In this document: in pieces, positions 2,453 to 24,273 of the stretch
How the letters are laid out: each line of letters starts with the position of its first letter
How positions within the stretch are numbered: position 1 is the stretch's first letter
From: an uncultured Candidatus Saccharibacteria bacterium
Lineage (GTDB): Bacteria > Patescibacteriota > Saccharimonadia > CAILAD01 > BJGX01
Direction of reading: 5' to 3'
Length of the DNA stretch: 64,000 nt
NCBI GenBank assembly: GCA_964552475.1
Contig: CAZKFZ010000005.1
Location: forward strand, 6,224 to 70,223
The notes under the pieces: generated by a model
Databases searched by the model: none
The model's input: only the letters and a program-made list of their open reading frames with translations
What the model was told of the DNA's origin: nothing
Translations under genes and position numbers: made by a program

Positions 2453-3934
2453 TTACTCTTTAACTGGTAGAGTAAAATTAATTTGGCTTGGTACTTCGGC
2501 ATGAAAATTTGCCAACACACCTTTAATTTGACCAGACTGCCAAATAACTATTATTGAATAAAGACCCACCATAAATCCGGCAAAGCCAATAGCTACAAAT
2601 AAAGGCCAAAGACTAGCGGGTTTCTCGCGTTCCATATAGAGTAGCTCTTGGTTGTTAGTGGCCTTTGAGGCGACAAAATAGTACTGTCTAGCCCAGGTAT
2701 TTTGTTGGTAATATTGCATGGTTGTTAGTATTACTACAGTAAGAATGGCAACAACAATTAACACCAATATAGTAGGGCTATTAACATGAGTAATAAAAAA
2801 ATCAGTAATTTGCCAATCTATAAATAAAATTGTACTGTAACCCAAGAAAATACCACTAATAGCTAAGAGACCAGTGGTAAAATTTCTTAAAGGACTTAGT
2901 TGTAGTAGCTTAAGACTCTGTAGTTGCAGATGACTAGTTTTACTACTACGCGCTAAAAGTCCAACCTGTAGCCAGTGCTTACTATAAAGCAAAACCAGAA
3001 CCACCAACCATATTACGGCTAAAAACACTATCAACTGGTATTTACTTGTAATTACCCAATGATTTTCCGAGTTAAATATTGTTATAGCAACCCACATAGT
3101 AAAAGCAGTGACTAAACAAATAATAACCAAGTGCAAAAGGTAGTTAATAGCTTGTCGTAGCATAGAATGAACTGCCGAGCGTAAAGCTGTGGTAAGTTGT
3201 AGAGTTCGATTATCTATCTGCCTAAGTCTTATTGCTATGCCAGCGTTTGATATTATTGATCGAAATATCACACCAATAAAGAATAGTGCTAGGGCCACTC
3301 CCGTAGACCACGCAAGAGCTGAAAAGTGGTCTGGACTAACCACGCCCTTAGCTTTTTGCAATACTTCATTTGTTGTAAAATTCTGTAATATCCTTAGTTG
3401 TAAAAGTATTACCGGCAAGCTAAGTAGAAGCCAGGTCTGCGGACTTACAATAGTTCTTATCAGACTCATTTGCCATAAACTAAATAGTGGCGAGGGCCAT
3501 ATTGACTTTATCAAAACAAACTCTAAATAATCTTGCGATAGAGACGATTTTGAGGTCTTTTTAACAGGAGTATTAGTAATTGATTTGGTGGTCGGAGCTA
3601 TTAGTGATTTTTTAATGCGCTTAGTGTGAACTTTTATTTTTTTCTTTAACTTTTCTTTCGTTGTCTTAAGTTTCTCTAATTTAGTGTACTCACTATCCTC
3701 ATAAAATTCCCGTTCGTTTTGAAGACTGGTAAGCGAAAGTTGGGTCTGTCTCTTACTTATGGCAGATTGCGATGGGCTTACAATGTTTTCTGGGGTGCGA
3801 AGGTCTAGCACCTCGGGATGTTTTTGTTTTGGCGATAACTGTGAATTACTTCTTGAACGACCAACAACTTCGCCAGTGTTGGAGTCATAAGCAATACCAT
3901 CAATAATTATGTGTTTCGGTGGGGGTTTTTTCAT
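2453..3934 (-). CDS. Polytopic membrane protein of unknown function (about 10 predicted TM helices, ~190-aa Lys/Ser-rich cytoplasmic N-terminus); last gene of the crtI-crtE-crtB minus-strand operon
   Basis: Long ORF with many hydrophobic segments; 44 nt downstream of crtB on the same strand. I recognise no motif. Confidence 0.55.
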   Translation of the reverse strand: MKKPPPKHIIIDGIAYDSNTGEVVGRSRSNSQLSPKQKHPEVLDLRTPENIVSPSQSAISKRQTQLSLTSLQNEREFYEDSEYTKLEKLKTTKEKLKKKIKVHTKRIKKSLIAPTTKSITNTPVKKTSKSSLSQDYLEFVLIKSIWPSPLFSLWQMSLIRTIVSPQTWLLLSLPVILLQLRILQNFTTNEVLQKAKGVVSPDHFSALAWSTGVALALFFIGVIFRSIISNAGIAIRLRQIDNRTLQLTTALRSAVHSMLRQAINYLLHLVIICLVTAFTMWVAITIFNSENHWVITSKYQLIVFLAVIWLVVLVLLYSKHWLQVGLLARSSKTSHLQLQSLKLLQLSPLRNFTTGLLAISGIFLGYSTILFIDWQITDFFITHVNSPTILVLIVVAILTVVILTTMQYYQQNTWARQYYFVASKATNNQELLYMEREKPASLWPLFVAIGFAGFMVGLYSIIVIWQSGQIKGVLANFHAEVPSQINFTLPVKE

Positions 3935-3978
3935 TGTACTAAAAAAGCATTTTATCTATTAATAGTATAGCCGAATTT

Positions 3979-4815
3979 CTATATATGAAGTAGTTTTTCA
4001 ACAAACACCACAAAATAAAGTAGTAACTTAGTGATATTAGTAACCCTTACTCGTTTCTCTCTTAATTCCTGAACACTAGTTTTTTGTATTTTCCTAAGTA
4101 GTAAACGATAGTACCAATAAGCCAGTAGAACTCCATATTTAGACGAATATGGGAGTTGGCTGATAGTGGACCTAGCAATCTTGAAATCATTGAGTATTTC
4201 TTGCTCAATTTGCTTTTTTTTATCATTTTGAAAATTATCTATATCGATATTCGGAAAGTAAACCCTACCCAATGCTTGGTTATCTTCATTTAGATCGCGT
4301 AAAAAGTTCACTTTTTGAAAAGCCGAACCCAAAGCTTTTGCACCATAGATAAGTTTTTTATATTTGGTCTTGCTACCCCCAAGAAAAACCATTAAACACA
4401 TCAGGCCAACAACTTCGGCAGAGCCATATATATAATCTTTATATTGTTTTTTTGTGTAAGAGTTTTTAGATATATCCATAGCCATACTACCTATGAAGGC
4501 CTGGATCAAACTAGAGTCTATTTGATATTTAATAACTGTTTGAGCGAAGGCGTGAATAACTGGATTTAAGCTAACACTCGACTTTACAGCCTGCGATGTC
4601 TCGGTGTTGAAATCTTTTAGCATGCGTAAACTATCTTTTGGCCGCAACGTATCCACTAACTCATCGGCAACCCTAACATAGCCGTATATGTTGTATATAT
4701 CTGTTCTTATAGGCTTGTCTAGCAACCTAATGGCCGCTGAAAATGATGTAGAATATTGCTTAGTGATAAAAGAGTTAATTACTTGCGAAACCTCGGTGTA
4801 TTGGTTTGGACTCAT
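3979..4815 (-). CDS. crtB: Phytoene synthase (squalene/phytoene synthase family)
   Basis: YSTSFSAAIRLL, YGYVRVADELVDT and YGSAEVVGLM correspond to conserved phytoene synthase motifs. Clustered with crtI and GGPP synthase. Confidence 0.85.
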   Translation of the reverse strand: MSPNQYTEVSQVINSFITKQYSTSFSAAIRLLDKPIRTDIYNIYGYVRVADELVDTLRPKDSLRMLKDFNTETSQAVKSSVSLNPVIHAFAQTVIKYQIDSSLIQAFIGSMAMDISKNSYTKKQYKDYIYGSAEVVGLMCLMVFLGGSKTKYKKLIYGAKALGSAFQKVNFLRDLNEDNQALGRVYFPNIDIDNFQNDKKKQIEQEILNDFKIARSTISQLPYSSKYGVLLAYWYYRLLLRKIQKTSVQELREKRVRVTNITKLLLYFVVFVEKLLHI

Positions 4816-4818
4816 TAG

Positions 4819-5895
4819 CTAACTACTCCTGGATACGCAATATTGCGCGAATTCGGCTAATATATGGGTTCTATTACTAGAGTTGGGTATCTTATTTGTT
4901 ATTTCGATAGCTGCATCCGCTAAATCTTGAGCCAACAATACAGTCTTCTGCCTGGCTCCAGATTCAATCAGTATATCTTGTACTTTTTTAACATCATTAG
5001 TGGTTAATTTAGGATTGTTAATGCAACTTTTCAAAAAATCTCTTTGAGATCCTTTTGTTAATTCAATACCATTATGTATAAGCACTGTTTGTTTTCCTTC
5101 TTTTATATCACTTCCTACAGGTTTACCAGTAAGCTTTGAGCTACCAAAGACTCCTAGATCATCATCGCTTAGTTGAAAAGCCACACCGGCATTGTTGCCA
5201 AAATTCGCGAATTGGGTATGCAATGTCGCTGGTCCATCTGCAAGTATCGCACCAAACTGTAAAGGCATTATTACTGTATAGTCTGCCGTTTTATATTGGT
5301 TTATCTTTTTAATATCACTTATAGTTAGGGATTTACTAACCGAACCAATTAGGTCAAGATGCTGACCAGCCGCTACGTCAAATGTTGCAGTGTTTAGCCT
5401 TGATATTGCCACTACTAATTGTTGAGGTTTCATACCCGACGCAATCAAAGATTCATAGCTTAAACCACAACAAATATCGCCTGCCAACATCGCTATAGAG
5501 TTCGCCACATGTTGAGCATCTATACTATTAAGTGTTTGGGAATACCTTTTTTTATAAACCCCAGTAACATTTAGCCCTCCGTGGCGCTTGTCGTCGTGAT
5601 CCATAATATCGTCATGCATAAGTAAATAATTGTGAAATATTTCTAATGATATTGCAGCTTTTAACATTTTATTTCTGTCGTTACCACCGGCAATTTCATA
5701 CCCCAACATTGCCAAGCATGGACGTAGTCGTTTGCCAGCACGCAAAGTTTGCTTTGCAATAACCTTAAGCAACTTTTGGTATTCGCCACCAATTTTAGAT
5801 GCATCAATAATTTTTTGATTCAAAAAATCGCTCAACAGAGCATCAATTTCTAGCTTCACCTTCGCAGCATATGATTTGAGATTTGTTTCAGTCAT
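4819..5895 (-). CDS. crtE: Polyprenyl (geranylgeranyl) diphosphate synthase
   Basis: First Asp-rich motif LLMHDDIMDHDDKRHG and second Asp-rich motif FQLSDDDLG are present. Sits between crtI and crtB with 3-nt gaps. Confidence 0.85.
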   Translation of the reverse strand: MTETNLKSYAAKVKLEIDALLSDFLNQKIIDASKIGGEYQKLLKVIAKQTLRAGKRLRPCLAMLGYEIAGGNDRNKMLKAAISLEIFHNYLLMHDDIMDHDDKRHGGLNVTGVYKKRYSQTLNSIDAQHVANSIAMLAGDICCGLSYESLIASGMKPQQLVVAISRLNTATFDVAAGQHLDLIGSVSKSLTISDIKKINQYKTADYTVIMPLQFGAILADGPATLHTQFANFGNNAGVAFQLSDDDLGVFGSSKLTGKPVGSDIKEGKQTVLIHNGIELTKGSQRDFLKSCINNPKLTTNDVKKVQDILIESGARQKTVLLAQDLADAAIEITNKIPNSSNRTHILAEFAQYCVSRSS

Positions 5896-5898
5896 AGG

Positions 5899-7404
5899 TT
5901 AATTTACTCCATTATCCTCGAGAATTCGCTCAACTACAAGTTTTGCAGATAATGTTACCATGGGAATACCGCCACCTGGATAAGTGCTGGCACCTACAAA
6001 GTATAGACCTTTTACGCTACGTTCAATATTGTGAGGCCTGAAATAACCAGACTGGAATAAGTGATGAGTTAGACCAAAAGCTGAGCCGGCAGTTAGGTTA
6101 AATTTAGTTTCAAAATCTTGGGGCGAAAATATCTTCTCTGTTTCAATATTTTTTTCTATGTCTTGGCCAAACTCACTATTTAGTCGCTTTATGACTTGGG
6201 TACGAATTTTTCCAATACCTTTGTCCCAGTTGTTTTCTCCTTGCAAGTTTGGAACAGGCACAAGTATATACATAACACTTCTGTTTTTTGGAGCAAGAGC
6301 AGGGTCGGTTTTGGTAGGAATGTAGGTGTAAAACGACGGATCACTAGGTAGTTTTTTGTTTTTTAATATTTCTTCGAGGTTGTTTTTAAAATCACTACAT
6401 AAATAAACGTTATGGTGCAACATACCGTCAAGCTGGTTATTAACGCCCCAATAGAATAAGAGCGCCGAACTGGCTTGTTTGAGATCTTCAGCTTTGCGAC
6501 CCAGGCTTTTTAGTTTTATAGGTGAGGATAGTAGATTTTTGTAAGCGTACACTAGGTCGGCATTGCAAACTACCAAATCCGCCTCTATAGCTTCTCCGCC
6601 CACAACAACCCCTTTGGCAATATTGTTTGTAATAGTAATTTGTGAGATAGGTGTATTGGTATATATTTTGCCACCCATACCTATTACGAGCTTCTCAAGC
6701 GCTTGACTTAAACTATACATACCACCTTTGGGGTACCAAATGCCGAGCCCAGTCTCCATATAGCTCAACACACTATAAACCGCCGGTGCCTCATATGGGC
6801 TCACGCCAAGATACATGCTCTGAAAACTAAATAGTTGGCGTAGTCTGTCGTCATTAAAATAACGACTCACAAACTTCCAAAGACTTATGAGCCCTCGTTT
6901 TTGTAGTAATTTAAGTCCAGAGCGAAAATTAATAAAATCTGTTAAACTGTCAAAGTTTTTATCTATAAAACCGCCGCGCGACAGCCTATATATCTCGGCC
7001 ACATCGGCAAAAAAACTATAAAATTGTTCAGGGGCCTTGGGGTCAAATTTGGCAAGCTCGCCTGTAAACTTTGGTAAGTTACTACTGACTGTAATACGTG
7101 ACCCATCGGCAAAGGCTACTTGATAATTGGGCTCGAGCTGAATAAGCTCAATATAGTCATTAAAGTCTTTACCACAATATGCAAAAGTGTCATAGAGTAC
7201 ATCGGTCATCATTAGTAGTGTTGGGCCGGTATCAAAAGTGTAGCCGTCTTGTTTTATTCGGTTGGCCCGCCCACCAACTAACGGCTCTTTCTCGTAAATA
7301 GATACTTGATAACCTTCTTTGAGTAGCCTGGCTGCCGTGCACATACCGCCTATGCCAGCACCTACTATTATTGCAGTTTTATTCTTTTTCATAGTGATTA
7401 TCAT
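5899..7404 (-). CDS. crtI: Phytoene desaturase, CrtI family FAD-dependent oxidoreductase
   Basis: N-terminal Rossmann motif AIIVGAGIGGMCTAARL...EKEPLVGGRA; ~500 aa; C-terminal GGGIPMV motif typical of CrtI. Confidence 0.85.
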   Translation of the reverse strand: MIITMKKNKTAIIVGAGIGGMCTAARLLKEGYQVSIYEKEPLVGGRANRIKQDGYTFDTGPTLLMMTDVLYDTFAYCGKDFNDYIELIQLEPNYQVAFADGSRITVSSNLPKFTGELAKFDPKAPEQFYSFFADVAEIYRLSRGGFIDKNFDSLTDFINFRSGLKLLQKRGLISLWKFVSRYFNDDRLRQLFSFQSMYLGVSPYEAPAVYSVLSYMETGLGIWYPKGGMYSLSQALEKLVIGMGGKIYTNTPISQITITNNIAKGVVVGGEAIEADLVVCNADLVYAYKNLLSSPIKLKSLGRKAEDLKQASSALLFYWGVNNQLDGMLHHNVYLCSDFKNNLEEILKNKKLPSDPSFYTYIPTKTDPALAPKNRSVMYILVPVPNLQGENNWDKGIGKIRTQVIKRLNSEFGQDIEKNIETEKIFSPQDFETKFNLTAGSAFGLTHHLFQSGYFRPHNIERSVKGLYFVGASTYPGGGIPMVTLSAKLVVERILEDNGVN

Positions 7405-7497
7405 ACCATATCAGCTCTATACTTATGGTAGACCTGTGTCTGGGTTGGGTGTACAATATTCACGTAAATTATTCGCACCCTTTGATTGGAGAGATTA

Positions 7498-8022
7498 ATG
7501 GAAACTTCAGTATCCGCTAGTGAGCTGATAGAAGAAGTGGAAGCACTGGTAATGAGTCATTGTAAAGCAGGTCAGACGAGAACTAAGCAGGGTCGAAAAG
7601 ATACCGTTGCCATTGCTAAGTTAATGTTAGAACAGACTGCCAAACCAGCTCGTCTGAGCAGGCAAGTACTATTCGGGCGATTAGATGATGTGCAAACTTT
7701 TTTGGGTTATTTGGTTTACTGGGCACCAGGGCTTGTTATATTCGAGCCGGCGCCTGAGTATATCGACTACTTTGGCATCGTCCGAGCTGAAAAAGTTGCA
7801 GGCAACACAATTGATGAAATACATATCGATAGCCTCTTTGATGAACCCGATCGAAGTCATAGCCACAAAATACTGATCAAATTCAGATATGATGGGTATG
7901 GTACTTATGCAGATATCTTCCCCACCATCGGAGGCGTCAATATGGGCGGCCATCGTATGTTTCCGCAGCACGCCTATACCATGCTTAACTGGCTAACAAT
8001 CATGCTTGGCCTCAATCTATAA
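7498..8022 (+). CDS. Hypothetical protein (~175 aa), first gene of the plus-strand carotenoid operon; locally higher GC (~47%) than its neighbours
   Basis: ORF with GGAGAG RBS 6 nt upstream of ATG 7498 (the ORF track starts at an upstream TTG at 7486). I recognise no motif and it has no Nudix box. Confidence 0.5.
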   Translation: METSVSASELIEEVEALVMSHCKAGQTRTKQGRKDTVAIAKLMLEQTAKPARLSRQVLFGRLDDVQTFLGYLVYWAPGLVIFEPAPEYIDYFGIVRAEKVAGNTIDEIHIDSLFDEPDRSHSHKILIKFRYDGYGTYADIFPTIGGVNMGGHRMFPQHAYTMLNWLTIMLGLNL

Positions 8023-8074
8023 CATATGCCCTCTCATATCATGAGAGGGTTTTTATTTGGAGTATAATAAAGAG

Positions 8075-8500
8075 ATGATTATGCGACTTATGTATACCCA
8101 CTACTTCTATGTTATTATTTTGATACTCAGTATTGGAGGTTTGCTTCTAGCCGACCGACGACTAAGACTGGCTTTTTGGCACAACAAAATTGCAAGTACA
8201 AAAGCAGTTGGCTATACCATGCTACTACTACTAATATTTGATGTTGCCGGGGTAATAAATAAAATATTCTCAACTAATCAAGATTATGTAGTGAGAATAA
8301 ATATTATTTCACCCAATATACCTATTGAAGAAATAATATTTTTGTTTATGCTATGCTATGTGACGCTGATTTTGTATCAATTAGTTGGAAGGCTAGAAGT
8401 ATTGAAACAAGTTGGGGCTAATAAGGGGCGAAAAAATGACAAGCTAGATCAGCCCCAAGCTACACTTAATGTGAGATCCAGGAAAAAAAATCATGACTAG
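8075..8500 (+). CDS. Lycopene cyclase domain protein, subunit 1 of a heterodimeric carotenoid cyclase (CrtYe/CrtYc-like)
   Basis: Small hydrophobic protein with the conserved hPhEE motif (NIPIEEIIFLF). The ORF track starts at 8057; ATG at 8075 is the more likely start. Adjacent to a second cyclase-domain gene and a UbiA elongase. Confidence 0.65.
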   Translation: MIMRLMYTHYFYVIILILSIGGLLLADRRLRLAFWHNKIASTKAVGYTMLLLLIFDVAGVINKIFSTNQDYVVRINIISPNIPIEEIIFLFMLCYVTLILYQLVGRLEVLKQVGANKGRKNDKLDQPQATLNVRSRKKNHD

Positions 8501-8786
8501 CTACTTAGTACTGGTAACTAGCTTGGTAGTAGTATCAGTCTTAATACTGGTGCGTTTGCGCATTACCCCACCAAAACCCAAAGTTTTGATGGTAGTAGGG
8601 CTAATTCTACTCATTGCTATGTTGGTATTTGACAACTACCTCACTACTCTGCCTATTGTGATGTATAATAATAGTTCTATATTAGGTTATAAAGTTGGCA
8701 ATATACCTATAGAAGATTTTGGCTACCTAGTTGCTGTAATACTACTGGTGCCCGCTTTGTTTGAATATTTTAAGAGCAATAAATAA
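8493..8786 (+). CDS. Lycopene cyclase domain protein, subunit 2 (CrtYf/CrtYd-like)
   Basis: 97 aa with 3 TM segments and motif NIPIEDFGYLV (the PxE(E/D) motif of lycopene cyclase domain proteins). Overlaps the upstream gene by 8 nt, which suggests translational coupling. Confidence 0.65.
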   Translation: MTSYLVLVTSLVVVSVLILVRLRITPPKPKVLMVVGLILLIAMLVFDNYLTTLPIVMYNNSSILGYKVGNIPIEDFGYLVAVILLVPALFEYFKSNK

Positions 8787-8787
8787 T

Positions 8788-10797
8788 ATGCCCAAAACAG
8801 ATAACAAACTCACTATCAAAGAAGTTTTGGCGACCAGTCGCCCAGTAAGTTGGATAAACACTGCTTTTCCTTTTTTGGTAGGATATTTGCTTGCTGCTCA
8901 AAGACTAAGTTTGCCTGGCTTAATAGGGTTTGGATATTTTCTGTTTTCTTACAATTTAATGCTTTATGGCGTAAACGATATATATGATTACGAATCAGAT
9001 ATTAAAAACCCTCGAAAGAATTCCATAGAAGGAGGTTTGCTTCTTAAGCAAAAGCACCGGAACCTATGGATAGCAATTGCAGTTATTAATTTACCTTTTG
9101 TGGTGTATTTTTTAGCTACCGGAACTACCACATCAAAGATACTATTTGTACTTATTATATTCTTTGCTTTCAGTTATAGCGCCAAGCCACTTCGTTTTAA
9201 AGAAGTTCCTTTTTTAGATTCAATAAACTCAGCATTACACTTTGTTTTGCCCTTTGTTTTCGGTCTTGCATATATGCAAAGTAATAACTACTATTGGCCA
9301 GCTGTAATTGCATTTTTAGCTTGGGGCATGGCGAGTCAAGCTTTTGGTGCAATACAAGATATTAAGCCAGATAGAGCCGCTAATATTAAATCAATTGCTA
9401 CAGTTATGGGTGCTAAGCGTACCAACATATTCGTCATTACACTCTACTTATTGTGTTGTGTACTGATTGCAGTGTTATACTTTCCGCTTGGCCTACTAGC
9501 TAGCGTGTTTTTGGGAATGTACGTCTTAAACGCTAGTTTTTTTATTAAATACAAATCCGATGCAAGATCATCACAATTTCATAGAGGTTGGCAAAATTTT
9601 ATGTGGCTTAATATGATAGTAGGGTTTTTTATTACCCAAATATTATTGTTTGCATTCGATCCGTTCGGTGTTAGGGAATATTTCATTGCATTAACTGGTT
9701 TTTTTCTATTAGTATTTTTCTTGATCCAACTTGGTTTAATAATATATAACCTAAGGGCTTTTGCTAGACCAAAGACAAAACGACTAAATGATTGGCCAAA
9801 AATTAGTATAATTATGCATGCTTATAATCAGGGTGATAATATATCTTCTACGCTCCTTTCACTTTTAGGTCAGCAATATCCTCAGTTCGAAATACTTTTT
9901 ACCGATCTAGGTTCGCAAGACAACACTCTAAGTATAGCCAAAGGATTTCAAGACCCAAGACTAAAGATAATAGAAACGAAACCACTTAAACCAAATTGGA
10001 CTCTTAACTCTTGGGTGTCTCAACAGTTGCTAGAAAAGTCGACAGGTGAAATAGTTTTGTTACTAAGTGCTGATACTATTCTATTGCCTAACGCTCTATC
10101 GGTAATGGCTAGTCTTATAGAGCAAGAAAAGTTAAGTTTAGTTTCGATATTACCATCAGACCAAAATAAAAGTTTTGCTCAACAAATTATACTGAGTCAA
10201 AACCATTACTTTATGCTTGGTCTATACCCTTCCGCTTATTTAGCAAAGGCTCACCCCAGGTCGGTTAATGCTAGTAGTAATATAACCGCCTTTGTGCGAT
10301 CGAGCGTATTAGCCCTTGGCGGTTTTGAACTTGTAAGAAAAAGTCCTTTGGAAGATTTCGACCTTGCGGCCGCCGCTAAGACAAGAGGTTTGAAAACTGG
10401 GTTCTATCTAGGATCAGACATGGCAATGAGCCAAAACCATGCTAGTTTAAGACTTATTGTGGCGCAAAACTTAAGACGTTTTTACCCAGCACTACACTTT
10501 TCTATGCCCTTAACAATCGCCTTAGTTTTATTTGGGTTGTTTGTCTTGGTCTTCCCAACTCTACTAATAAGCTACTTATTGCTATTTAATATTTACATAG
10601 GCTTATGGTTCTTAGCCTTGGCAATTGGACTTAGTTATATTAACCGATTAATTATTACTATAATTTCTCGTCAGAGTATTGTGTCTACGTTACTGTATCC
10701 TATTGGTTGCCTATGTTCATTTTATTTACTTGTTTACTCAATGATAAACTATGAAGTATTGAAGCCTAGGTGGCAAAATCGTAAAGAAGTGTTTTAG
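8788..10797 (+). CDS. Fusion protein. The N-terminal ~290 aa is a UbiA-family prenyltransferase (lycopene elongase CrtEb-like) and the C-terminal ~330 aa is a GT2 glycosyltransferase (CrtX/CrtQ-like) with a C-terminal TM anchor
   Basis: UbiA motifs NDIYDYESD (NDxxDxxxD) and QDIKPD (DxxxD) are present. The GT2 signature is ISIIMHAYNQGDNISSTLLSLLGQQYPQFEILFTDLGSQDNT, followed by hydrophobic C-terminal helices. The ORF track starts at 8761; ATG 8788 is the likely start. Confidence 0.7.
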   Translation: MPKTDNKLTIKEVLATSRPVSWINTAFPFLVGYLLAAQRLSLPGLIGFGYFLFSYNLMLYGVNDIYDYESDIKNPRKNSIEGGLLLKQKHRNLWIAIAVINLPFVVYFLATGTTTSKILFVLIIFFAFSYSAKPLRFKEVPFLDSINSALHFVLPFVFGLAYMQSNNYYWPAVIAFLAWGMASQAFGAIQDIKPDRAANIKSIATVMGAKRTNIFVITLYLLCCVLIAVLYFPLGLLASVFLGMYVLNASFFIKYKSDARSSQFHRGWQNFMWLNMIVGFFITQILLFAFDPFGVREYFIALTGFFLLVFFLIQLGLIIYNLRAFARPKTKRLNDWPKISIIMHAYNQGDNISSTLLSLLGQQYPQFEILFTDLGSQDNTLSIAKGFQDPRLKIIETKPLKPNWTLNSWVSQQLLEKSTGEIVLLLSADTILLPNALSVMASLIEQEKLSLVSILPSDQNKSFAQQIILSQNHYFMLGLYPSAYLAKAHPRSVNASSNITAFVRSSVLALGGFELVRKSPLEDFDLAAAAKTRGLKTGFYLGSDMAMSQNHASLRLIVAQNLRRFYPALHFSMPLTIALVLFGLFVLVFPTLLISYLLLFNIYIGLWFLALAIGLSYINRLIITIISRQSIVSTLLYPIGCLCSFYLLVYSMINYEVLKPRWQNRKEVF

Positions 10798-10821
10798 ATA
10801 TAAAAAAAATTTGTAACTTAT

Positions 10822-11577
10822 TTATTTAATTGATTCCTTCAGGGTAGTTTGAGCTTTCTGTATTGCAGAATTAAACTCTTCAATCATTTTAGATATCGTA
10901 CTTTGTCGCACATGTTGTGCAGTTTTAGTTGTAGAGACAATACTAGATTCTCCAAACGTGATAGATTGAATTATGTTTCGTGCATTTTGTAGATCGCTTT
11001 TTAACTCTTTACGTACGGCCGTGCCATTATTTCCTGCGTCACAACTTGATTGAGCCTTGACTAGTGAGGTAGAAACATAATTCTTATAAGCTGAAATAGC
11101 TAAGTCTATATTACTGTTGCGCTCAGAAATTATACCTATAACATCGTCATTGTAAGTATCGACAGCCTTGTCGACAGACGAGCGACGCTCGGCGATAGCC
11201 ATCTCTACACTGGTTTTAAAAACATTAATGGCTTGTTGTTGAGTATCTGTTTGAGACTTTTCGAGTAGTTTTGTATAGTGCTCCTGCCTATTACTGTCCC
11301 ACTTAGCTTGTATACTTGATATATCTTTGTCGCGTTTTGAAAAGATCTCGTTAAGTTCTTCTTTTTTAGCAACTCTGGTGTTATTTATACTAGTTATCTT
11401 TTGATCAATCTGACTATTTAGTCTTGAAGATATAGAGCTGAGTTGATTACAGAAAATATCATCAGTACCCTGTTGTGCCAAAGTAATTTGTGGACTAAAA
11501 ATACTGACAATAAATGTTAAAAATAACATAGTGGTAGATATAATAATTATAGGATTATGTTTATAGACTTGGGTCAT
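10822..11577 (-). CDS. Secreted or membrane-anchored coiled-coil protein of unknown function (signal peptide, cleavage near TLA-QQ)
   Basis: N-terminal hydrophobic segment followed by a Gln/Ser/Lys-rich helical region. Its start overlaps the stop of the upstream anti-sigma candidate by 17 nt. Confidence 0.5.
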   Translation of the reverse strand: MTQVYKHNPIIIISTTMLFLTFIVSIFSPQITLAQQGTDDIFCNQLSSISSRLNSQIDQKITSINNTRVAKKEELNEIFSKRDKDISSIQAKWDSNRQEHYTKLLEKSQTDTQQQAINVFKTSVEMAIAERRSSVDKAVDTYNDDVIGIISERNSNIDLAISAYKNYVSTSLVKAQSSCDAGNNGTAVRKELKSDLQNARNIIQSITFGESSIVSTTKTAQHVRQSTISKMIEEFNSAIQKAQTTLKESIK

Positions 11578-12034
11578 TGCTAATATCTCCTAATTGCTTG
11601 ATTTCGTTAGACACCTCTTGCACTACATTCTCTCCCTTAGTCATGGCTTGGTCGTTAATACTACTCTCATCGGCCAAGTCAGCACTAATGGAGTTGAAAG
11701 TATTCTCGATAGTACCATCTGGAGCAGATTGGCTTAGTTTGTTGGTGTTATTGTTATTGATATTGGAGTTATTATTCTTAAAGAAAAACACACCACCAAA
11801 TATCACTACCAACATAATAGTTGCAATAGGTATATATAACCTTAGTTGATTAAGTATTGGGTTATTTTTTGTTTCTGGTATTACACTTCTTGGGCTATTA
11901 TTTTCTTTATCTATTCTCTGAAGAGTATTATTAAGAAGGTGTCTCTTGTTAAATGAAAAGCCTTTCAACTCTTTTAGTTTCTTGGCATACTCTTCAGGAC
12001 TATTATTGCTCTTATTGTTATACATTTTATTCAT
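11561..12034 (-). CDS. Candidate anti-sigma factor. Single-pass membrane protein with a cytoplasmic N-terminus, one TM and an Asn-rich extracytoplasmic domain
   Basis: Immediately downstream of the ECF sigma gene and overlapping it. Topology is typical of ECF anti-sigma factors. The ORF track starts at 12100; MNKMYNN at 12034 is the likely start. Confidence 0.45.
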   Translation of the reverse strand: MNKMYNNKSNNSPEEYAKKLKELKGFSFNKRHLLNNTLQRIDKENNSPRSVIPETKNNPILNQLRLYIPIATIMLVVIFGGVFFFKNNNSNINNNNTNKLSQSAPDGTIENTFNSISADLADESSINDQAMTKGENVVQEVSNEIKQLGDISNDPSL

Positions 12035-12608
12035 TTTCTTGTTTAGAAACTTCTGATAGTGCCATTGTGGCTCTAGATAGTAACTTGCGGGTAGCAACAT
12101 CGCTTTTTCCGATTATCATAGCTATTTCTGCGCTAGATAAATTCTCCATATAACGAAGAATTAGGGCTTCTTGGTAGTTATTGGGTAATTTTTTTAAATT
12201 ACGATAAAGTTGTTTTATTTCTTCGGAATTTATAACGTCATCCTGAGGGTTTTGTGACTTATCTTCAAGAAGCAAAAGCACTTCTTCAGAGTTTTGTATT
12301 TTTGTTGCTTTTCTGCCTTTACTGCGATAAAAATCGACAATTACGCTTCGGGCAATACTAAATATATAGGCAGATGGCTGGTAGCCTTTATCTTGCCAAT
12401 TATGCAAATTTCTATAAAACTTAATAAAAACCTGCTGGGTAAGGTCGTCGGTCTCTTCGCTGTCACCCACCCTAATAAGAATATATCTATAAATAGGTGA
12501 AAAATACTCTTCATACAATTGTTCAAAAGCCGCCTCGTCACCACTTCTTGCTTTGGCAACTAGTGGTACAAAGTTATCGGGTTGTTCTTGGGGGTTTTGT
12601 GTAGTCAT
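12027..12608 (-). CDS. ECF-type (sigma-70 family group 4) RNA polymerase sigma factor
   Basis: A region 2 motif and a region 4 HTH-type segment (sequences in the ECF-module finding); 193 aa. Confidence 0.8.
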   Translation of the reverse strand: MTTQNPQEQPDNFVPLVAKARSGDEAAFEQLYEEYFSPIYRYILIRVGDSEETDDLTQQVFIKFYRNLHNWQDKGYQPSAYIFSIARSVIVDFYRSKGRKATKIQNSEEVLLLLEDKSQNPQDDVINSEEIKQLYRNLKKLPNNYQEALILRYMENLSSAEIAMIIGKSDVATRKLLSRATMALSEVSKQENE

Positions 12609-12701
12609 TATTTACTGCATTAGTATAGCATAATTAAAAAAATACATACTGAAACAACGTAAATGAACAATAAAAAGATTATTGGGTTCTACTATAAGAG
12701 T

Positions 12702-12956
12702 CTATAAACCCAAAATCTGAGCTTTTTTAGCTGAAAACTCTTCGTCAGTCAAGACACCATTGTCGTGTAGTTCACCAAGCTTTTCTAGTTGTTGAATTTG
12801 ATCATCACCACCTTGGACATTAGATTGTTGAGGAACCTGCTCGGCTTCTTCATTGGCCCATCTATTAGCTTGTCTACGACTAACGTTATTTGATACTGCA
12901 GTAGCTGTTCCGGCTATAACGGCAGTTCTAGCCATCCCTCTAAGTAATCCTGGCAT
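12702..12956 (-). CDS. SHOCT-domain protein
   Basis: C-terminal LEKLGELHDNGVLTDEEFSAKKAQILG matches the SHOCT short C-terminal domain pattern. Confidence 0.5.
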   Translation of the reverse strand: MPGLLRGMARTAVIAGTATAVSNNVSRRQANRWANEEAEQVPQQSNVQGGDDQIQQLEKLGELHDNGVLTDEEFSAKKAQILGL

Positions 12957-15034: not shown

Positions 15035-15074
15035 TATCTGTTATTATAACCAACCTAAGTGGTTTATACAAAAA

Positions 15075-15440
15075 CTACTTGATGATTTTCTTTAGTTCTT
15101 TCTCGTGAGTTGCCATTTTTAAATTTAAATAACTCACTAGGGCGCTTACACCTGTAGCAAATAGTAGATAAAAAATAATTGCAAACAACGCACTTGCACT
15201 AAAATAGCCAGTTTCTCCTACTGGGTGGGTAGGAAAAATACCCCTAAATGGTTGTAAGAATTCATTGGCAATTTTATATACAAACTGCACAAACGGCGTA
15301 GTAGGATTAGCCGAAAACAAAAGGAAGAAAAACCCAAATGTTAAAGATACTATCGCAATCATCGTAAAACCATAAACAATATAGGTAATTACTCTACCTA
15401 TTTTAATAAATGTTAGTGTTGTATCGTTTTGTTGGGCCAT
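15075..15440 (-). CDS. Small membrane protein, YggT-like (2 TM)
   Basis: 121 aa, two TM segments, with a central LQPFRGIFP motif reminiscent of the YggT family. Confidence 0.4.
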   Translation of the reverse strand: MAQQNDTTLTFIKIGRVITYIVYGFTMIAIVSLTFGFFFLLFSANPTTPFVQFVYKIANEFLQPFRGIFPTHPVGETGYFSASALFAIIFYLLFATGVSALVSYLNLKMATHEKELKKIIK

Positions 15441-15456
15441 TTCATCTCCTTACTTA

Positions 15457-15792
15457 CTATTTATCTGAGTTTATTCTTCTTATTTCACGTTTTAAAACCG
15501 CTCGTCTAACAACTAAGTTTGCGAACGTAGCAATTATTCCAATACCTATTACTACGTAAAACATAATAAAAATCTTGCCTCCTGGCGTTGTTGGGGTGAT
15601 ATCTCCATAGCCTATAGTCGCGAGAGATATTGTACAAAAATAGAATGCGTCTAACCAACTTAGTTTTTGTACGTAATGAAAGAATATTGCGCCTACACTA
15701 AGTAAAGTAATTGCCGTGACACCAGCCATTCTGAACTGTTGAATAACGCCTTTGTATTCATCTAAGGTTTGTTGTTTGTAACTTTTGCTCAT
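15457..15792 (-). CDS. Minimal two-TM potassium channel (pore-only, KcsA-like)
   Basis: Carries the canonical K+ selectivity filter TIGYGD between two TM helices; 111 aa. Confidence 0.75.
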   Translation of the reverse strand: MSKSYKQQTLDEYKGVIQQFRMAGVTAITLLSVGAIFFHYVQKLSWLDAFYFCTISLATIGYGDITPTTPGGKIFIMFYVVIGIGIIATFANLVVRRAVLKREIRRINSDK

Positions 15793-17081: not shown

Positions 17082-17174
17082 CTTTTTTTAACCTCTTTCT
17101 TTAGTAATTTTTACTTACTATCATATTAAAGTACTTATGCTTATTTTGCAATAGGCTTTTTTTATTTTTTTCAA

Positions 17175-18124: not shown

Positions 18125-18137
18125 GCTTTAATCATCC

Positions 18138-20370: not shown

Positions 20371-20375
20371 ATCAA

Positions 20376-23415: not shown

Positions 23416-24273
23416 TTATAAATGGTGTTTGTTAGTAGCAACTCTTGCTAAAGCCAAAAGCGCAATCGTGCCAAGACCAAATAGCGCAATAAGCGACATT
23501 GGCTCGGTAATAGTAGTAGGCTTTGCAGTTAGTAAAGGACTTAAGACTACAGATACTACAGGTATTATAAACAACACAATTGGCTCTGTTAGAAACCTTC
23601 GGCTTGGCAGTGCACTTAGGTTGGGTGATTTAGTAATATAGCCAAGTATTAGCGATATGATTAAAAACAATACTACAGTCTCCCCTAACCAACCAGTAAA
23701 GTTCTGGTATGGCACACCAAAAAATATTCCACCTTGGGTCCATATATATATCTTATCGACAGTTGAGTTAATGGGGTCATTGGCCAGATCGGATAGTGTC
23801 ATAAGCATACCGCTTAGCAAGCTTAGTATTACTATTTCTAAGCCCTTTACCAACTTGAGCCACCCCAATATTATTCTAATTACTAGATAACTACTATAGG
23901 CTAAACTAAAGTATGTGAGCATTAAAAGAACCGGTACGCCACCTAGCAAAGGACCATTGCCTATTAGATTGTAGTAGTACGAACCAAAAATGTGGCCGGT
24001 ATTGACACCCAAGTACTCGGCTATAAAAGTAACAATGTAAGTAACCACAAAAAATATGAGTATATTTTTACCCCCCAAATACCTAGCGCCATGCAAGAAC
24101 ACAAAGATTGCCGGCAACAAGTAGATTATTAGGGCAAGTGGGCCAGCAATAGTTGGTAGCAGAGCGGTAATTAATAGTGTTACTAATATTACCCAGCGCA
24201 GTGGCGCAAATTTATCGTGCTGCTTAGGGCGCTTTGATGTCGCTTGTGCTTTCATTTGTTTAAATTGTAGCAC
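23416..24273 (-). CDS. 8-TM integral membrane protein of unknown function
   Basis: 285 aa, many hydrophobic helices; no CxxC pairs, so it is not a PilD prepilin peptidase. Confidence 0.5.
   Translation of the reverse strand: MLQFKQMKAQATSKRPKQHDKFAPLRWVILVTLLITALLPTIAGPLALIIYLLPAIFVFLHGARYLGGKNILIFFVVTYIVTFIAEYLGVNTGHIFGSYYYNLIGNGPLLGGVPVLLMLTYFSLAYSSYLVIRIILGWLKLVKGLEIVILSLLSGMLMTLSDLANDPINSTVDKIYIWTQGGIFFGVPYQNFTGWLGETVVLFLIISLILGYITKSPNLSALPSRRFLTEPIVLFIIPVVSVVLSPLLTAKPTTITEPMSLIALFGLGTIALLALARVATNKHHL

What the first reader, a model, noticed from the sequence alone, without database searches (positions are those of the whole stretch)
2453..10797. Complete divergent carotenoid locus with C50-type gene set in a CPR-like genome
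The sequence shows two divergent operons. The minus arm is crtI (5899-7404), a GGPP synthase (4819-5895) and crtB (3979-4815), with 3-nt gaps, followed by a 493-aa membrane protein. The plus arm is an unknown orf (7498-8022), two lycopene-cyclase-domain subunits with PIEE/PIED motifs (8075-8786) and a UbiA prenyltransferase::GT2 fusion (8788-10797). From established knowledge, a UbiA-family lycopene elongase (CrtEb/CrtE2) plus a heterodimeric CrtYe/Yf-type cyclase plus a glycosyltransferase (CrtX) defines the decaprenoxanthin or sarcinaxanthin glucoside C50 pathways of Corynebacterium and Micrococcus. By inference, this organism makes a glycosylated cyclic C50 (or related) carotenoid. That would be unexpected for a reduced-genome CPR/Saccharibacteria-like bacterium, if the lineage call holds.
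Basis: partly seen in the sequence, partly recalled or inferred. Interest (0 to 1): 0.8.

Follow-up and report, generated by a model that had tools for sequence, protein, structure and literature searches.

The report
Saccharibacteria C50-type carotenoid gene cluster
A tiny, reduced-genome Saccharibacteria (CPR) bacterium carries a conserved pigment locus that most likely makes an elongated, sugar-decorated carotenoid, using a previously undescribed enzyme that joins the chain-lengthening step and the sugar-adding step in one protein.

Summary
crtB, a polyprenyl synthase and crtI lie on the minus strand. Two lycopene-cyclase-domain subunits and a UbiA::GT2 fusion lie on the plus strand.

The UbiA half passes the NCBIfam model NF009608 (318 bits, cutoff 217). 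That model also hits the elongase of actinobacterial crtE-B-I-Ye-Yf-Eb clusters. In a neighbour-joining tree the UbiA half groups with CrtEb-type enzymes, not LyeJ-type (89% bootstrap).

The Saccharibacteria call holds. The cluster lies between secE-nusG and an ECF sigma operon on a contig that also carries the ribosomal operons and lacks uL30. The same layout recurs in at least 8 other Saccharibacteria contigs.

- The 7498-8022 ORF is a species-specific orphan.
- The GT2 half resembles HpnB/CruG and is not an orthologue of actinobacterial CrtX.
- A CruF-family hydratase at 23416-24273 was missed.
- Relatives that lost the crt genes keep the fusion with decayed UbiA motifs.

C50 genes in Patescibacteria were briefly reported in 2023 as "bacterioruberin". 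This is therefore a new variant of a known kind. The product remains unproven.

The parts
2453..3934 (-). 493-aa membrane protein (TM493). It is the last gene of the minus arm, next to secE. The N-terminal ~130 aa are disordered and Lys-rich. The C-terminal part is a helical membrane domain with a CysZ / choline-transporter-like fold.
3979..4815 (-). crtB, a phytoene-synthase-family gene
   Evidence: PF00494 scores 145 bits, E 3e-42. All NCBIfam equivalogs are below their cutoffs. It is conserved in the related loci.
4819..5895 (-). Short-chain polyprenyl diphosphate synthase (crtE/idsA-like), the presumed GGPP synthase
   Evidence: PF00348 scores 162 bits. The best NCBIfam hits are actinobacterial-type IDS models, all below their cutoffs. 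The first Asp-rich motif DDIMD is at residue 95 with Tyr at position -5 (and the sequence). The chain length is inferred from context only.
5899..7404 (-). crtI, a phytoene desaturase family gene. It is the only CrtI-family gene found in the window.
   Evidence: TIGR02734 scores 481 bits against a cutoff of 238. NF058655 CrtID scores 399 bits, below its cutoff of 640. Public gene calls start 4 codons later, at 7392.
7498..8022 (+). orf174, an orphan gene inserted between the divergent operons. It is not part of the conserved cluster.
   Evidence: No family hit. It has only 2 relatives among 1.84 billion representatives. It is present only in the same-species contig L001. Its GC is 0.448 against about 0.35 in the neighbouring plus-arm genes. 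It has its own terminator-like hairpin at 8028-8050.
8075..8500 (+). cycA, lycopene-cyclase-domain subunit 1 (CrtYe-like). The start is ambiguous: 8057, 8075 or 8081.
   Evidence: TIGR03462 scores 45 bits against a cutoff of 39.4. The PIEE motif is visible in the translation. It is homologous to the subunit that precedes crtEb in about 60 actinobacterial loci. A promoter-like site lies at 8041-8068.
8493..8786 (+). cycB, lycopene-cyclase-domain subunit 2 (CrtYf-like)
   Evidence: PF18916 scores 54.5 bits and TIGR03462 scores 54.9 bits. The PIED motif is present. It overlaps cycA by 8 nt and ends 1 nt before the fusion gene starts. In Arthrobacter (L002) this subunit is fused to the elongase. 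In Dietzia and Kocuria loci a single stop-to-stop ORF matches both, which is not confirmed as one gene.
8788..10797 (+). CrtEb-type lycopene elongase (about residues 1-300) fused to a membrane GT2 glycosyltransferase (about residues 330-669)
   Evidence: NF009608 scores 318 bits against a cutoff of 217. PF00535 scores 60 bits. HpnB scores 98 bits and CruG 61 bits, both below their cutoffs. Both UbiA Asp-rich motifs are intact: NDIYDYESD and QDIKPD. The GT2 'ED' motif is intact. The DxD motif reads SAD. There are about 100 fused homologue clusters in Saccharibacteria and further ones in Chloroflexota.
10822..12608 (-). ECF sigma factor (12027-12608), a 157-aa single-pass membrane protein (11561-12034, anti-sigma-like) and a 251-aa signal-peptide protein (10822-11577). 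This operon is always downstream of the fusion gene and is a candidate regulator.
   Evidence: PF04542, PF08281 and PF07638 hit the sigma factor. The overlapping reading frames are seen. The trio is conserved next to the fusion in L001, L004-L006 and L084; in L008, L009, L086 and L087 p251 and sigma matched but p179 was not detected. The regulatory role is inference only.
23416..24273 (-). CruF-family carotenoid hydratase-like membrane protein. It is the outlying member of the pathway.
   Evidence: PF04240 scores 99.5 bits against a cutoff of 25. The NCBIfam CruF equivalogs score 47-74 bits, below their cutoffs. In L084 it lies directly after the sigma gene, 1.8 kb from the fusion. In L086 it lies 8.6 kb downstream.

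Best explanation
This is a vertically inherited, chromosomal carotenoid biosynthesis locus of one clade of Saccharibacteria.

Shown by homology and context:
- The minus arm is IDS -> CrtB -> CrtI. It is the module expected to make an acyclic C40 carotene (lycopene) from C5 units.
- The plus arm is two cyclase-domain subunits followed by a bifunctional protein, all translationally coupled.
- The N-terminal half of the bifunctional protein is a CrtEb-type UbiA prenyltransferase.
- The C-terminal half is a membrane GT2 of the HpnB/CruG type.

Inferred:
- The elongase adds hydroxylated C5 units to C-2/C-2' of lycopene, giving C45/C50 carotenoids.
- The CycA/CycB heterodimer cyclises the elongated ends.
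- The fused GT2 glycosylates a carotenoid hydroxyl in the membrane. The fusion would channel the hydrophobic intermediate from one active site to the other.
- A CruF-family hydratase, ancestrally just beyond the adjacent ECF-sigma operon, may hydrate any remaining acyclic end. The final pigment could therefore be a cyclic or mixed cyclic/hydrated C45-C50 glycoside, not exactly decaprenoxanthin or sarcinaxanthin glucoside.
- The neighbouring ECF sigma / anti-sigma-like pair is a candidate stress or light regulator.
- The conserved CysZ/CTL-fold membrane protein is a candidate partner of the GT2 half.
For: Family hits for all genes are.

NF009608 is the model that recognises the elongase inside actinobacterial crtE-crtB-crtI-cycA-cycB::UbiA clusters (469 bits in Arthrobacter). 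The window domain passes its cutoff (318 against 217), and so do all 17 fused proteins tested. MenA, UbiA and ChlG models score only 25-44 bits.

In the NJ tree with 200 bootstraps, CrtEb-type sequences (Actinobacteria, both Saccharibacteria groups, Chloroflexota) separate from LyeJ-like sequences (Haloferax, second Kocuria copy) in 178/200 replicates. The window is 42% identical to actinobacterial CrtEb and 28% identical to LyeJ-like proteins.

The gene order cycA-cycB-elongase is universal in about 75 loci from three phyla.

Rosetta-stone fusions link the three activities:
- cycB::UbiA in Arthrobacter (L002), and by shared stop-to-stop ORFs in Dietzia and Kocuria loci.
- UbiA::GT2 in Saccharibacteria and Chloroflexota.
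- cyc::UbiA::GT2 in P0120.

There is a natural knock-out correlation. Three loci that lack crtB, IDS, crtI and the cyc genes (L009, L087, L088) all have degenerate UbiA Asp-rich motifs, while their GT2 motifs persist. All 10 other fused loci, of which 9 show crt or cyc genes (L084 is cut just upstream of the fusion), keep YG[VI]NDI[YF]D[YF][ED]SD.

The locus is native and not a binning artefact:
- It is on the same contig as rpoBC, the S10-spc-alpha operons and secE-nusG.
- Its GC (0.35-0.40) matches the window (0.39).
- The same secE-side anchor (nusG/secE) recurs in L005-L008 and L010, with the sigma-side genes also in L004-L006 and L008; L006 lies on a 798-kb contig.
Against: There are no biochemical data.
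- The experimentally characterised CrtEb, CrtE2, LbtC and LyeJ sequences could not be retrieved. Placement rests on congeners and an NCBIfam model whose description is only 'prenyltransferase'.
- The tree is NJ, not ML. Monophyly of the fused Saccharibacteria clade has only 66% support.
- The cyclase domain model does not separate C50 cyclases from C40 cyclases.
- The IDS and CrtB fall below every NCBIfam equivalog cutoff, so C20 and C40 chain lengths are contextual inferences.
- The GT2 DxD motif reads SAD in the Saccharibacteria proteins.
- No MEP or mevalonate genes are in the window. Saccharimonadia are reported to have only C10-C20 isoprenoid steps (PMC9166423), so precursor supply is unexplained.
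- The CruF-like gene does not belong to the textbook cyclic C50 pathways.
Confidence: 0.7

Rival explanations
1. The pathway makes acyclic bacterioruberin-like C50 carotenoids (LyeJ + CrtD + CruF logic). This is how the only earlier report on Patescibacteria annotated such genes.
For: A CruF-family gene is present and ancestrally linked to the cluster. PMC9948471 reports lyeJ, crtD and cruF hits in Baikal Patescibacteria, with cruF distant from the other two genes, which matches the arrangement here. CrtI gives a sub-threshold hit to the bifunctional desaturase model CrtID (399 bits).
Against: The UbiA domain scores below the cutoff of the haloarchaeal-type model NF009516 (155 against 205) but above that of NF009608. 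It separates from LyeJ-like sequences in 89% of bootstraps. Two cyclase subunits are translationally coupled to the elongase, which bacterioruberin clusters do not need. No second CrtI/CrtD gene is in the window. The Kocuria loci that do have a LyeJ-like gene next to a second CrtI-family (CrtD-like) gene form a separate branch.
Confidence: 0.12
2. Only a C40 carotenoid is made, for example a cyclic carotene via a CrtYc/Yd-like heterodimer. The UbiA::GT2 protein then acts on another lipid, such as a polyprenyl or host-derived terpenoid glycolipid.
For: The cyclase domain model does not discriminate between C40 and C50 enzymes. crt-less relatives keep the fusion and the TM493 neighbour, so at least the GT2 half has a role independent of the crt genes. 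The GT2 half resembles the hopanoid-associated HpnB more than any carotenoid GT.
Against: The UbiA catalytic motifs decay precisely in the crt-less genomes. The UbiA domain passes the CrtEb-type equivalog cutoff. Coupling with the cyclase genes is strict across three phyla, and cyclase-elongase fusions exist.
Confidence: 0.1
3. The cluster is not native. It is either actinobacterial DNA mis-assembled or mis-binned into a Saccharibacteria MAG, or a very recent transfer from an actinobacterial host.
For: The UbiA half is 39-45% identical to actinobacterial CrtEb. The IDS is of an actinobacterial type. Actinobacteria are the known hosts of Saccharibacteria (PMC9296517). A second, unfused Saccharibacteria group does cluster with Actinobacteria (93% bootstrap) and has their collinear gene order.
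Against: The window-type cluster lies between secE-nusG and the sigma operon on the same contig as the ribosomal and rpoBC operons. Its GC is typical of the window. It is found at the same site in Saccharibacteria whose fusion proteins are only 46-74% identical to the window's. It forms its own clade outside Actinobacteria. Any transfer was therefore ancient.
Confidence: 0.03

Closest known systems
[quoted passage not shown]
   Same: The enzyme set is the same: IDS, CrtB, CrtI, two small cyclase-domain subunits, a CrtEb-type UbiA elongase and a glycosyltransferase. The internal order cycA-cycB-elongase is the same. A membrane protein of unknown role is embedded in both operons.
   Different: Here there are two divergent operons instead of one collinear operon. 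The elongase is fused to the GT. The GT2 is HpnB/CruG-like and not an orthologue of the small GT2 genes flanking actinobacterial clusters (27-50 bits, N-terminal region only). The embedded membrane protein has a CysZ/CTL fold and is not an MmpL/RND protein. An ECF sigma operon sits where C. glutamicum has the MarR regulator CrtR. A CruF-like hydratase is present in addition.
Sarcinaxanthin (Micrococcus luteus crtE2-crtYg-crtYh-crtX) and C.p.450 (Dietzia lbtA-lbtBC) clusters. These are recalled from established literature (Netzer 2010; Tao 2007) and not re-read here.
   Same: All combine an elongase, a heterodimeric C50 cyclase and, in Micrococcus, a glycosyltransferase. The Dietzia-type cyclase-elongase fusion also occurs in Arthrobacter L002. 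Loci from Dietzia aurantiaca and Kocuria fetched here have a single stop-to-stop ORF spanning both domains.
   Different: The fusion partner differs: GT2 at the C-terminus here, against a cyclase subunit at the N-terminus there. The ring type (epsilon, gamma or beta) cannot be predicted from sequence.
Bacterioruberin pathway LyeJ-CrtD-CruF of haloarchaea and some Micrococcaceae. It was invoked for Patescibacteria in PMC9948471.
   Same: Both use a UbiA-family lycopene elongase and a PF04240 CruF-family protein, and both make a C50 product.
   Different: The elongase here is CrtEb-type, not LyeJ-type. Cyclase subunits are present. No separate CrtD was found. CruF is not adjacent to the elongase.
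CruF/CruG of Synechococcus sp. PCC 7002 (myxol glycoside synthesis) and the HpnB hopanoid-associated GT2. The biology is from established knowledge. The similarity is from NCBIfam models NF045692, NF045693 and TIGR03469.
   Same: The GT2 half gives its best specific hits to HpnB (98 bits) and CruG (61 bits). The outlying gene hits CruF (74 bits). The logic is that of a hydratase plus a membrane GT2 acting on a terpenoid hydroxyl.
   Different: All scores are far below the equivalog cutoffs. No fusion to an elongase is known for CruG or HpnB.

Membership tests
CrtEb-type lycopene elongase (UbiA superfamily; NCBIfam NF009608/PRK13105; KEGG 'lycopene elongase/hydratase, flavuxanthin-forming') | A UbiA prenyltransferase domain with both Asp-rich motifs (NDxxDxxxD and DxxxD) intact | tested here: met
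   PF01040 scores 96 bits. The motifs YGVNDIYDYESD and AIQDIKPD align with those of actinobacterial homologues.
CrtEb-type lycopene elongase (UbiA superfamily; NCBIfam NF009608/PRK13105; KEGG 'lycopene elongase/hydratase, flavuxanthin-forming') | The score exceeds the curated cutoff of the family model and exceeds the scores of sister UbiA families | tested here: met
   NF009608 scores 318 bits against a cutoff of 217. NF009516 (haloarchaeal type) scores 155 against 205. MenA scores 25, UbiA 28 and ChlG 44 bits. The same model scores 469 bits on the elongase of an Arthrobacter crtE-B-I-cyc cluster. A related fusion is named lycopene elongase by JGI (P0118).
CrtEb-type lycopene elongase (UbiA superfamily; NCBIfam NF009608/PRK13105; KEGG 'lycopene elongase/hydratase, flavuxanthin-forming') | Phylogenetic placement with CrtEb/CrtE2/LbtC and not with LyeJ or quinone/haem prenyltransferases | tested here: met
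   In the NJ tree of 87 sequences, the split from LyeJ-like sequences is supported in 178/200 bootstraps on a 40-sequence subset. Caveat: the characterised proteins themselves were not available, only congeners (Dietzia, Glutamicibacter, Kocuria, Microbacterium hydrocarbonoxydans). The method was NJ, not ML.
CrtEb-type lycopene elongase (UbiA superfamily; NCBIfam NF009608/PRK13105; KEGG 'lycopene elongase/hydratase, flavuxanthin-forming') | Catalyses C5 addition to lycopene, giving C45/C50 products | not testable with these tools
   This needs heterologous expression and HPLC-MS.
Heterodimeric C50 carotenoid cyclase (CrtYe/Yf, CrtYg/Yh, LbtA/B) | Two adjacent small membrane proteins, each with one lycopene-cyclase domain and a PxE(E/D) motif | tested here: met
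   TIGR03462 scores 45 and 55 bits against a cutoff of 39.4. PF18916 scores 54.5 bits on the second subunit. PIEE and PIED are visible in the translations.
Heterodimeric C50 carotenoid cyclase (CrtYe/Yf, CrtYg/Yh, LbtA/B) | Encoded immediately upstream of, and co-transcribed with, the elongase | tested here: met
   The genes overlap by 8 nt and are then separated by a 1-nt gap. The same order is seen in about 75 loci.
Heterodimeric C50 carotenoid cyclase (CrtYe/Yf, CrtYg/Yh, LbtA/B) | Acts on C50 (flavuxanthin) and not on C40 lycopene, with a defined ring type | not testable with these tools
   No sequence model separates C50 from C40 (CrtYc/Yd) heterodimers.
CrtX carotenoid glycosyltransferase of actinobacterial C50 clusters | Orthology to the GT2 genes associated with actinobacterial crt clusters | tested here: not met
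   A profile of the fused GT2 halves hits the small GT2 genes flanking actinobacterial clusters with only 27-50 bits, over about the first 110 profile positions in most hits. The best named relatives are HpnB and CruG. The function may still be analogous.
GT2 inverting glycosyltransferase (GT-A fold) | A nucleotide-sugar-binding domain with a DxD motif and the catalytic 'ED' Asp | tested here: inconclusive
   PF00535 scores 60 bits. PDB hits to SpsA and other GT2 enzymes cover the N-terminal part. LEDFD is conserved. The DxD motif reads SAD in the window (TAD, GAD or other variants in other Saccharibacteria), against DAD in the Chloroflexota fusions.
Bacterioruberin pathway (LyeJ, CrtD, CruF) | A LyeJ-type elongase/hydratase | tested here: not met
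   NF009516 is below its cutoff. The tree separates the window from the Haloferax and Kocuria LyeJ-like sequences.
Bacterioruberin pathway (LyeJ, CrtD, CruF) | A dedicated CrtD 3,4-desaturase in addition to CrtI | tested here: not met
   Only one CrtI-family ORF was found among the window ORFs scanned. The rest of the genome was not seen.
Bacterioruberin pathway (LyeJ, CrtD, CruF) | A CruF-family hydratase | tested here: met
   PF04240 scores 99.5 bits against a cutoff of 25 at 23416-24273. The NCBIfam CruF equivalogs are below their cutoffs.
Saccharibacteria / CPR lineage of the host genome | CPR ribosomal signature (no uL30), with nearest relatives and synteny in Saccharibacteria genomes | tested here: met
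   S5 (36780-37271) abuts L15 (36250-36780) with no L30 gene between them. Homologues at 40-74% identity are named Candidatus Saccharibacteria or Saccharimonadales. The region is syntenic with 7 Saccharibacteria MAG contigs. No rRNA gene is in the window, so there is no 16S confirmation.

The most novel reading that the evidence does not exclude
A clade of Saccharibacteria, organisms thought unable to build their own lipids, autonomously makes a so far undescribed glycosylated C45/C50 carotenoid using a bifunctional elongase-glycosyltransferase. In relatives that have lost the crt genes, the surviving GT2 half together with the CysZ/CTL-fold neighbour has been repurposed to glycosylate or import terpenoids taken from the actinobacterial host. 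The locus would then record a gradient from self-made to host-derived membrane pigments.
Probability: 0.15. Interest if true: 0.75.

Novelty: new variant of a known kind. Interest (0 to 1): 0.5.

Why it matters
Saccharibacteria are ultra-small epibionts with about 0.8-Mb genomes. They lack fatty-acid synthesis and, reportedly, C5 isoprenoid synthesis. Rhodopsin-bearing members are thought to borrow retinal from their hosts (PMC9296517, PMC9166423).

A seven-to-eight-gene pigment pathway kept at a core chromosomal site across a whole clade implies strong selection for a membrane carotenoid. Possible benefits are photoprotection, oxidative-stress protection, or rigidifying membranes made of scavenged lipids. 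It also raises the question of where the precursors come from.

For carotenoid enzymology, the elongase::GT2 fusion and the cyclase::elongase::GT2 triple fusion in another lineage are natural Rosetta stones. They link three membrane steps and offer compact parts for engineering C50 glycosides.

The crt-less relatives provide a natural experiment on which half of the fusion depends on carotenoids.

Tried and rejected
- I tried to obtain the experimentally characterised CrtEb, CrtE2, LbtC and LyeJ sequences and could not. The single genome-contig scan returned congeners only. The plasmid tblastn returned Arthrobacter and haloarchaeal homologues. A literature search for PRK13105 found nothing.
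- A first bootstrap with Biopython's BLOSUM distance calculation timed out. It was replaced by Kimura distances.
- phmmer of the CruF-like protein against the 83 loci held at that point found nothing within ±9 kb of the elongase. The link was then established through shared contigs.
- Exact-sequence cluster look-ups of ten window proteins gave no organism names. Look-ups of window proteins returned Logan contigs and not the NCBI record.
- PHROGs scans of orf174, p251, p157, the 197-aa ORF at 24497-25090 and TM493 were empty.
- A C30 staphyloxanthin-type pathway (CrtM/CrtN/CrtQ-GT2) was considered and rejected. The locus has its own IDS, a CrtEb-type elongase and cyclases, and no CrtM or CrtN model appeared among the hits.
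- Contamination or mis-binning was considered and rejected (see rival explanations).
- The ARAGORN 'tRNA-Stop' at 28688-28759 is not supported by Rfam.

Full report
**Observation**

The ORF map reproduces the finding exactly. On the minus strand lie a 493-aa ORF (2453-3934), crtB (3979-4815), a polyprenyl synthase (4819-5895) and crtI (5899-7404). The last three are separated by 3-nt gaps. On the plus strand lie an ORF at 7498-8022, two small ORFs (8057/8075-8500 and 8493-8786) and a 669-aa ORF (8788-10797).

Profile searches give these hits:
- crtB: PF00494, 145 bits.
- polyprenyl synthase: PF00348, 162 bits.
- crtI: TIGR02734 crtI_fam, 481 bits (cutoff 238).
- the two small proteins: TIGR03462 at 45 and 55 bits (cutoff 39.4), and PF18916 at 54.5 bits on the second.
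- the large protein: PF01040 UbiA plus PF00535 GT2.

The PIEE and PIED motifs are present in the translations.

**Lineage and nativeness**

The rest of the window is core chromosome. It holds L1-L11-nusG-secE directly next to the cluster, type IV pilus genes, purD, tRNAs, the ribosomal-protein operons, EF-G/EF-Tu-sized ORFs, two large rpoB/rpoC-sized ORFs (1174 and 1262 aa), clpP and tig. The EF and rpo identities were read from ORF size and position and were not scanned.

S5 abuts L15 with no uL30 gene between them. That is the CPR ribosomal signature, from established knowledge (Brown et al. 2015).

Homologues of the fusion protein down to about 40% identity are named Candidatus Saccharibacteria or Saccharimonadales wherever a source name exists.

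The layout nusG-secE-TM493-crtB-IDS-crtI <> cycA-cycB-UbiA::GT2, followed by p251, p157 and an ECF sigma gene, recurs in Saccharibacteria contigs L005-L008 and L010, and in part in L004 and L086. One of these contigs is 798 kb long. The fusion proteins at these loci are only 46-74% identical to the window protein.

The GC content of the crt genes (0.35-0.40) matches the window (0.39). The cluster is thus an old, vertically inherited feature of a Saccharibacteria clade. It is not contamination or a recent insert.

**The elongase**

The UbiA half scores 318 bits on NCBIfam NF009608 (cutoff 217). It scores only 155 on NF009516 (cutoff 205), 25 on a MenA model, 28 on UbiA and 44 on ChlG.

To find out what NF009608 stands for, I fetched a homologue from an Arthrobacter megaplasmid. 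It lies in a collinear crtE-crtB-crtI-cycA-(cycB::UbiA) cluster and scores 469 bits on NF009608. A Haloferax homologue scores best on NF009516. All 17 fused proteins tested match NF009608 best.

The genome scan returned about 60 Actinomycetota loci (Glutamicibacter, Dietzia, Kocuria, Microbacterium, Brevibacterium, Leifsonia and others). Their UbiA proteins are 39-45% identical to the window domain. All but a few truncated contigs show the order IDS-crtB-crtI-cycA-cycB-UbiA, or as much of it as the contig holds. This is the decaprenoxanthin-type operon described for C. glutamicum (PMC5401885).

In an NJ tree the CrtEb-type sequences separate from LyeJ-like ones (Haloferax, and the second UbiA copy next to a CrtD-like gene in Kocuria) in 178 of 200 bootstraps. 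Both Asp-rich motifs are intact.

**Two kinds of Saccharibacteria clusters**

One group (L025, L026, L027, L036, L074) has an unfused elongase in the actinobacterial collinear order. It groups with Actinobacteria in 186 of 200 bootstraps.

The window belongs to a separate fused clade, with monophyly supported in 133 of 200 bootstraps. The fused clade is sister to the unfused group in only 1 of 200 replicates.

Fused proteins also occur in Chloroflexota and Limnocylindrales at 30-34% identity, next to crtI-crtB. One metagenomic protein (P0120) carries cyclase domain + UbiA + GT2 in a single chain.

Together with the actinobacterial cycB::UbiA fusion (confirmed in Arthrobacter L002; suggested by shared stop-to-stop ORFs in Dietzia and Kocuria), these are Rosetta-stone links among cyclase, elongase and glycosyltransferase.

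**The glycosyltransferase half**

This half is a GT2 with C-terminal membrane helices. Its best specific NCBIfam hits are the hopanoid-associated HpnB (98 bits) and the carotenoid 2'-O-glycosyltransferase CruG (61 bits). Both are below their cutoffs. PDB relatives (SpsA and others) cover only the nucleotide-binding part.

Many actinobacterial crt loci carry a small GT2 next to crtEb or crtE. These match a profile of the fused GT2 halves only weakly (27-50 bits, about the first 110 positions in most hits). The fused GT2 is therefore analogous to CrtX, not orthologous to it. The 'ED' motif is conserved. The DxD motif reads SAD.

1. *A CruF-family gene.* It lies at 23416-24273 (PF04240, 99.5 bits; NCBIfam CruF models 47-74 bits, below their cutoffs). 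In L084 the order is fusion-p251-p157-sigma-cruF, with cruF 1.8 kb from the fusion. In L086 cruF lies 8.6 kb downstream. In the window, an 10-kb block of transporter, channel and pilus genes separates sigma from cruF. This matches the remark in PMC9948471 that cruF lies far from 'lyeJ/crtD' in a Baikal Saccharibacteria genome.

2. *orf174 is an orphan.* The ORF at 7498-8022 is not part of the conserved cluster. It occurs only in the same-species contig L001. It has 2 relatives among 1.84 billion representatives. Its GC is higher (0.448). It carries its own terminator-like hairpin.

3. *A conserved ECF sigma operon.* An ECF sigma factor, a single-pass membrane protein and a secreted protein always follow the fusion gene. 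By analogy with CarQ/CarR and LitS (recalled knowledge, untested here), this is a candidate regulator.

4. *A natural knock-out series.* Three Saccharibacteria loci (L009, L087, L088) lack crtB, IDS, crtI, cycA and cycB at this site. They still keep the fusion gene beside secE, together with the TM493-like gene in L009 and L088 and an undetected 440-aa gene at that position in L087. In all three the UbiA Asp-rich motifs are degenerate:
   - L009: CGVGDIYDDKSD.
   - L088: YGVVDIYGDELN and KNIKPD.
   - L087: the first motif is lost and the second reads RGIKSN.

   Their GT2 motifs persist. All ten other fused loci keep the consensus; nine of them show crt or cyc genes, and L084 is cut just upstream of the fusion. 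This ties the UbiA half functionally to the crt genes. It also suggests the GT2 half has an additional, crt-independent role, possibly with TM493.

**TM493**

**Mechanism proposed**

The assignment of families and the coupling of genes are shown. The chemistry is inferred.

- IDS makes GGPP, CrtB makes phytoene and CrtI makes lycopene.
- The CrtEb-type half adds C5 units at C-2/C-2'.
- CycA/CycB cyclise the elongated ends.
- The fused GT2 glycosylates a hydroxyl.
- CruF may hydrate remaining acyclic ends.

The exact product cannot be derived from sequence. That covers ring type, the C45/C50 ratio and the position of the sugar.

Weak points:
- IDS and CrtB are below all equivalog cutoffs.
- The cyclase model does not separate C40 from C50 enzymes.
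- The DxD motif is a variant.
- No C5-precursor pathway is in the window, and Saccharimonadia reportedly have only C10-C20 steps (PMC9166423).

**Comparison and novelty**

The locus works like the actinobacterial cyclic C50 pathways (decaprenoxanthin, sarcinaxanthin, C.p.450). The elongase meets the testable membership criteria for the CrtEb type.

It differs in these respects:
- the divergent operon layout;
- the elongase::GT2 fusion;
- the type of GT2;
- the CruF-like gene;
- the sigma-factor neighbour;
- the host lineage.

Literature searches found only one earlier mention of C50 genes in Patescibacteria (PMC9948471). That paper annotated them as bacterioruberin genes. No description of the fusion was found. 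Jaffe et al. (PMC9296517) stress that rhodopsin-bearing Saccharibacteria cannot make retinal.

I rate this a new variant of a known kind, with interest about 0.5. It is notable for CPR biology and offers a neat enzymological architecture. However, it is widespread in public data, partly anticipated in the literature and biochemically unproven.

Noticed in passing
window 23416-24273 (-): A CruF-family (PF04240) carotenoid hydratase-like gene lies 12.6 kb outside the finding, next to tRNA-Trp. In relatives (L084) it sits directly after the ECF sigma gene near the fusion.
   Followed up: yes
L009 8905-11004; L087 10001-11986; L088 10001-12025: Saccharibacteria loci that have lost crtB, IDS, crtI, cycA and cycB still keep the UbiA::GT2 fusion next to secE, with a TM493 homologue in L009 and L088 and an undetected 440-aa gene at that position in L087. 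Their UbiA Asp-rich motifs are degenerate while the GT2 motifs are intact.
   Followed up: partly
window 7498-8022 (+), hairpin 8028-8050: An orphan 174-aa gene is inserted between the divergent crt operons. It has higher GC (0.448), its own terminator, only 2 relatives among 1.84 billion representative proteins, and is absent from all other related loci.
   Followed up: partly
[not shown]
   Followed up: partly
window 10822-12608 (-): An ECF sigma factor, an overlapping 157-aa single-pass membrane protein and a 251-aa secreted protein recur next to the fusion gene in related loci (the 157-aa protein was not detected in every one). They may form a sigma/anti-sigma regulator of the pigment genes.
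   Followed up: no
L025, L026, L027, L036, L074: A second group of Saccharibacteria carries an unfused, collinear IDS-crtB-crtI-cycA-cycB-crtEb cluster. Its elongase groups with Actinobacteria (93% bootstrap), which suggests an independent acquisition, possibly from actinobacterial hosts.
   Followed up: partly
P0120 (ENA metagenome protein, 741 aa): A triple fusion of lycopene-cyclase domain + UbiA elongase + GT2 in one polypeptide.
   Followed up: no
L024, L068, L073 (Kocuria), about 9850-12800 minus strand: Kocuria genomes carry, right next to the cyclic C50 cluster, a second LyeJ-like UbiA gene and a CrtD-like desaturase. This implies two elongase types in one locus.
   Followed up: no
window 36250-37271: Ribosomal protein genes S5 and L15 abut with no uL30 gene between them, the CPR hallmark.
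   Followed up: yes
window 28688-28759 (+): ARAGORN calls a tRNA with the stop-codon-reading anticodon TTA, antisense to the pseudouridine synthase gene. Rfam's tRNA model does not reach its gathering score there, so this is probably a false positive.
   Followed up: partly
window 16623-23316 (-): A type IV pilus block (three prepilin-like genes with N-methylation motifs, PilC-like T2SSF, PilB-like T2SSE ATPase), together with the MFS, YggT and K-channel genes at 13421-15792, separates the sigma operon from cruF. In the relative L084, cruF directly follows sigma.
   Followed up: no
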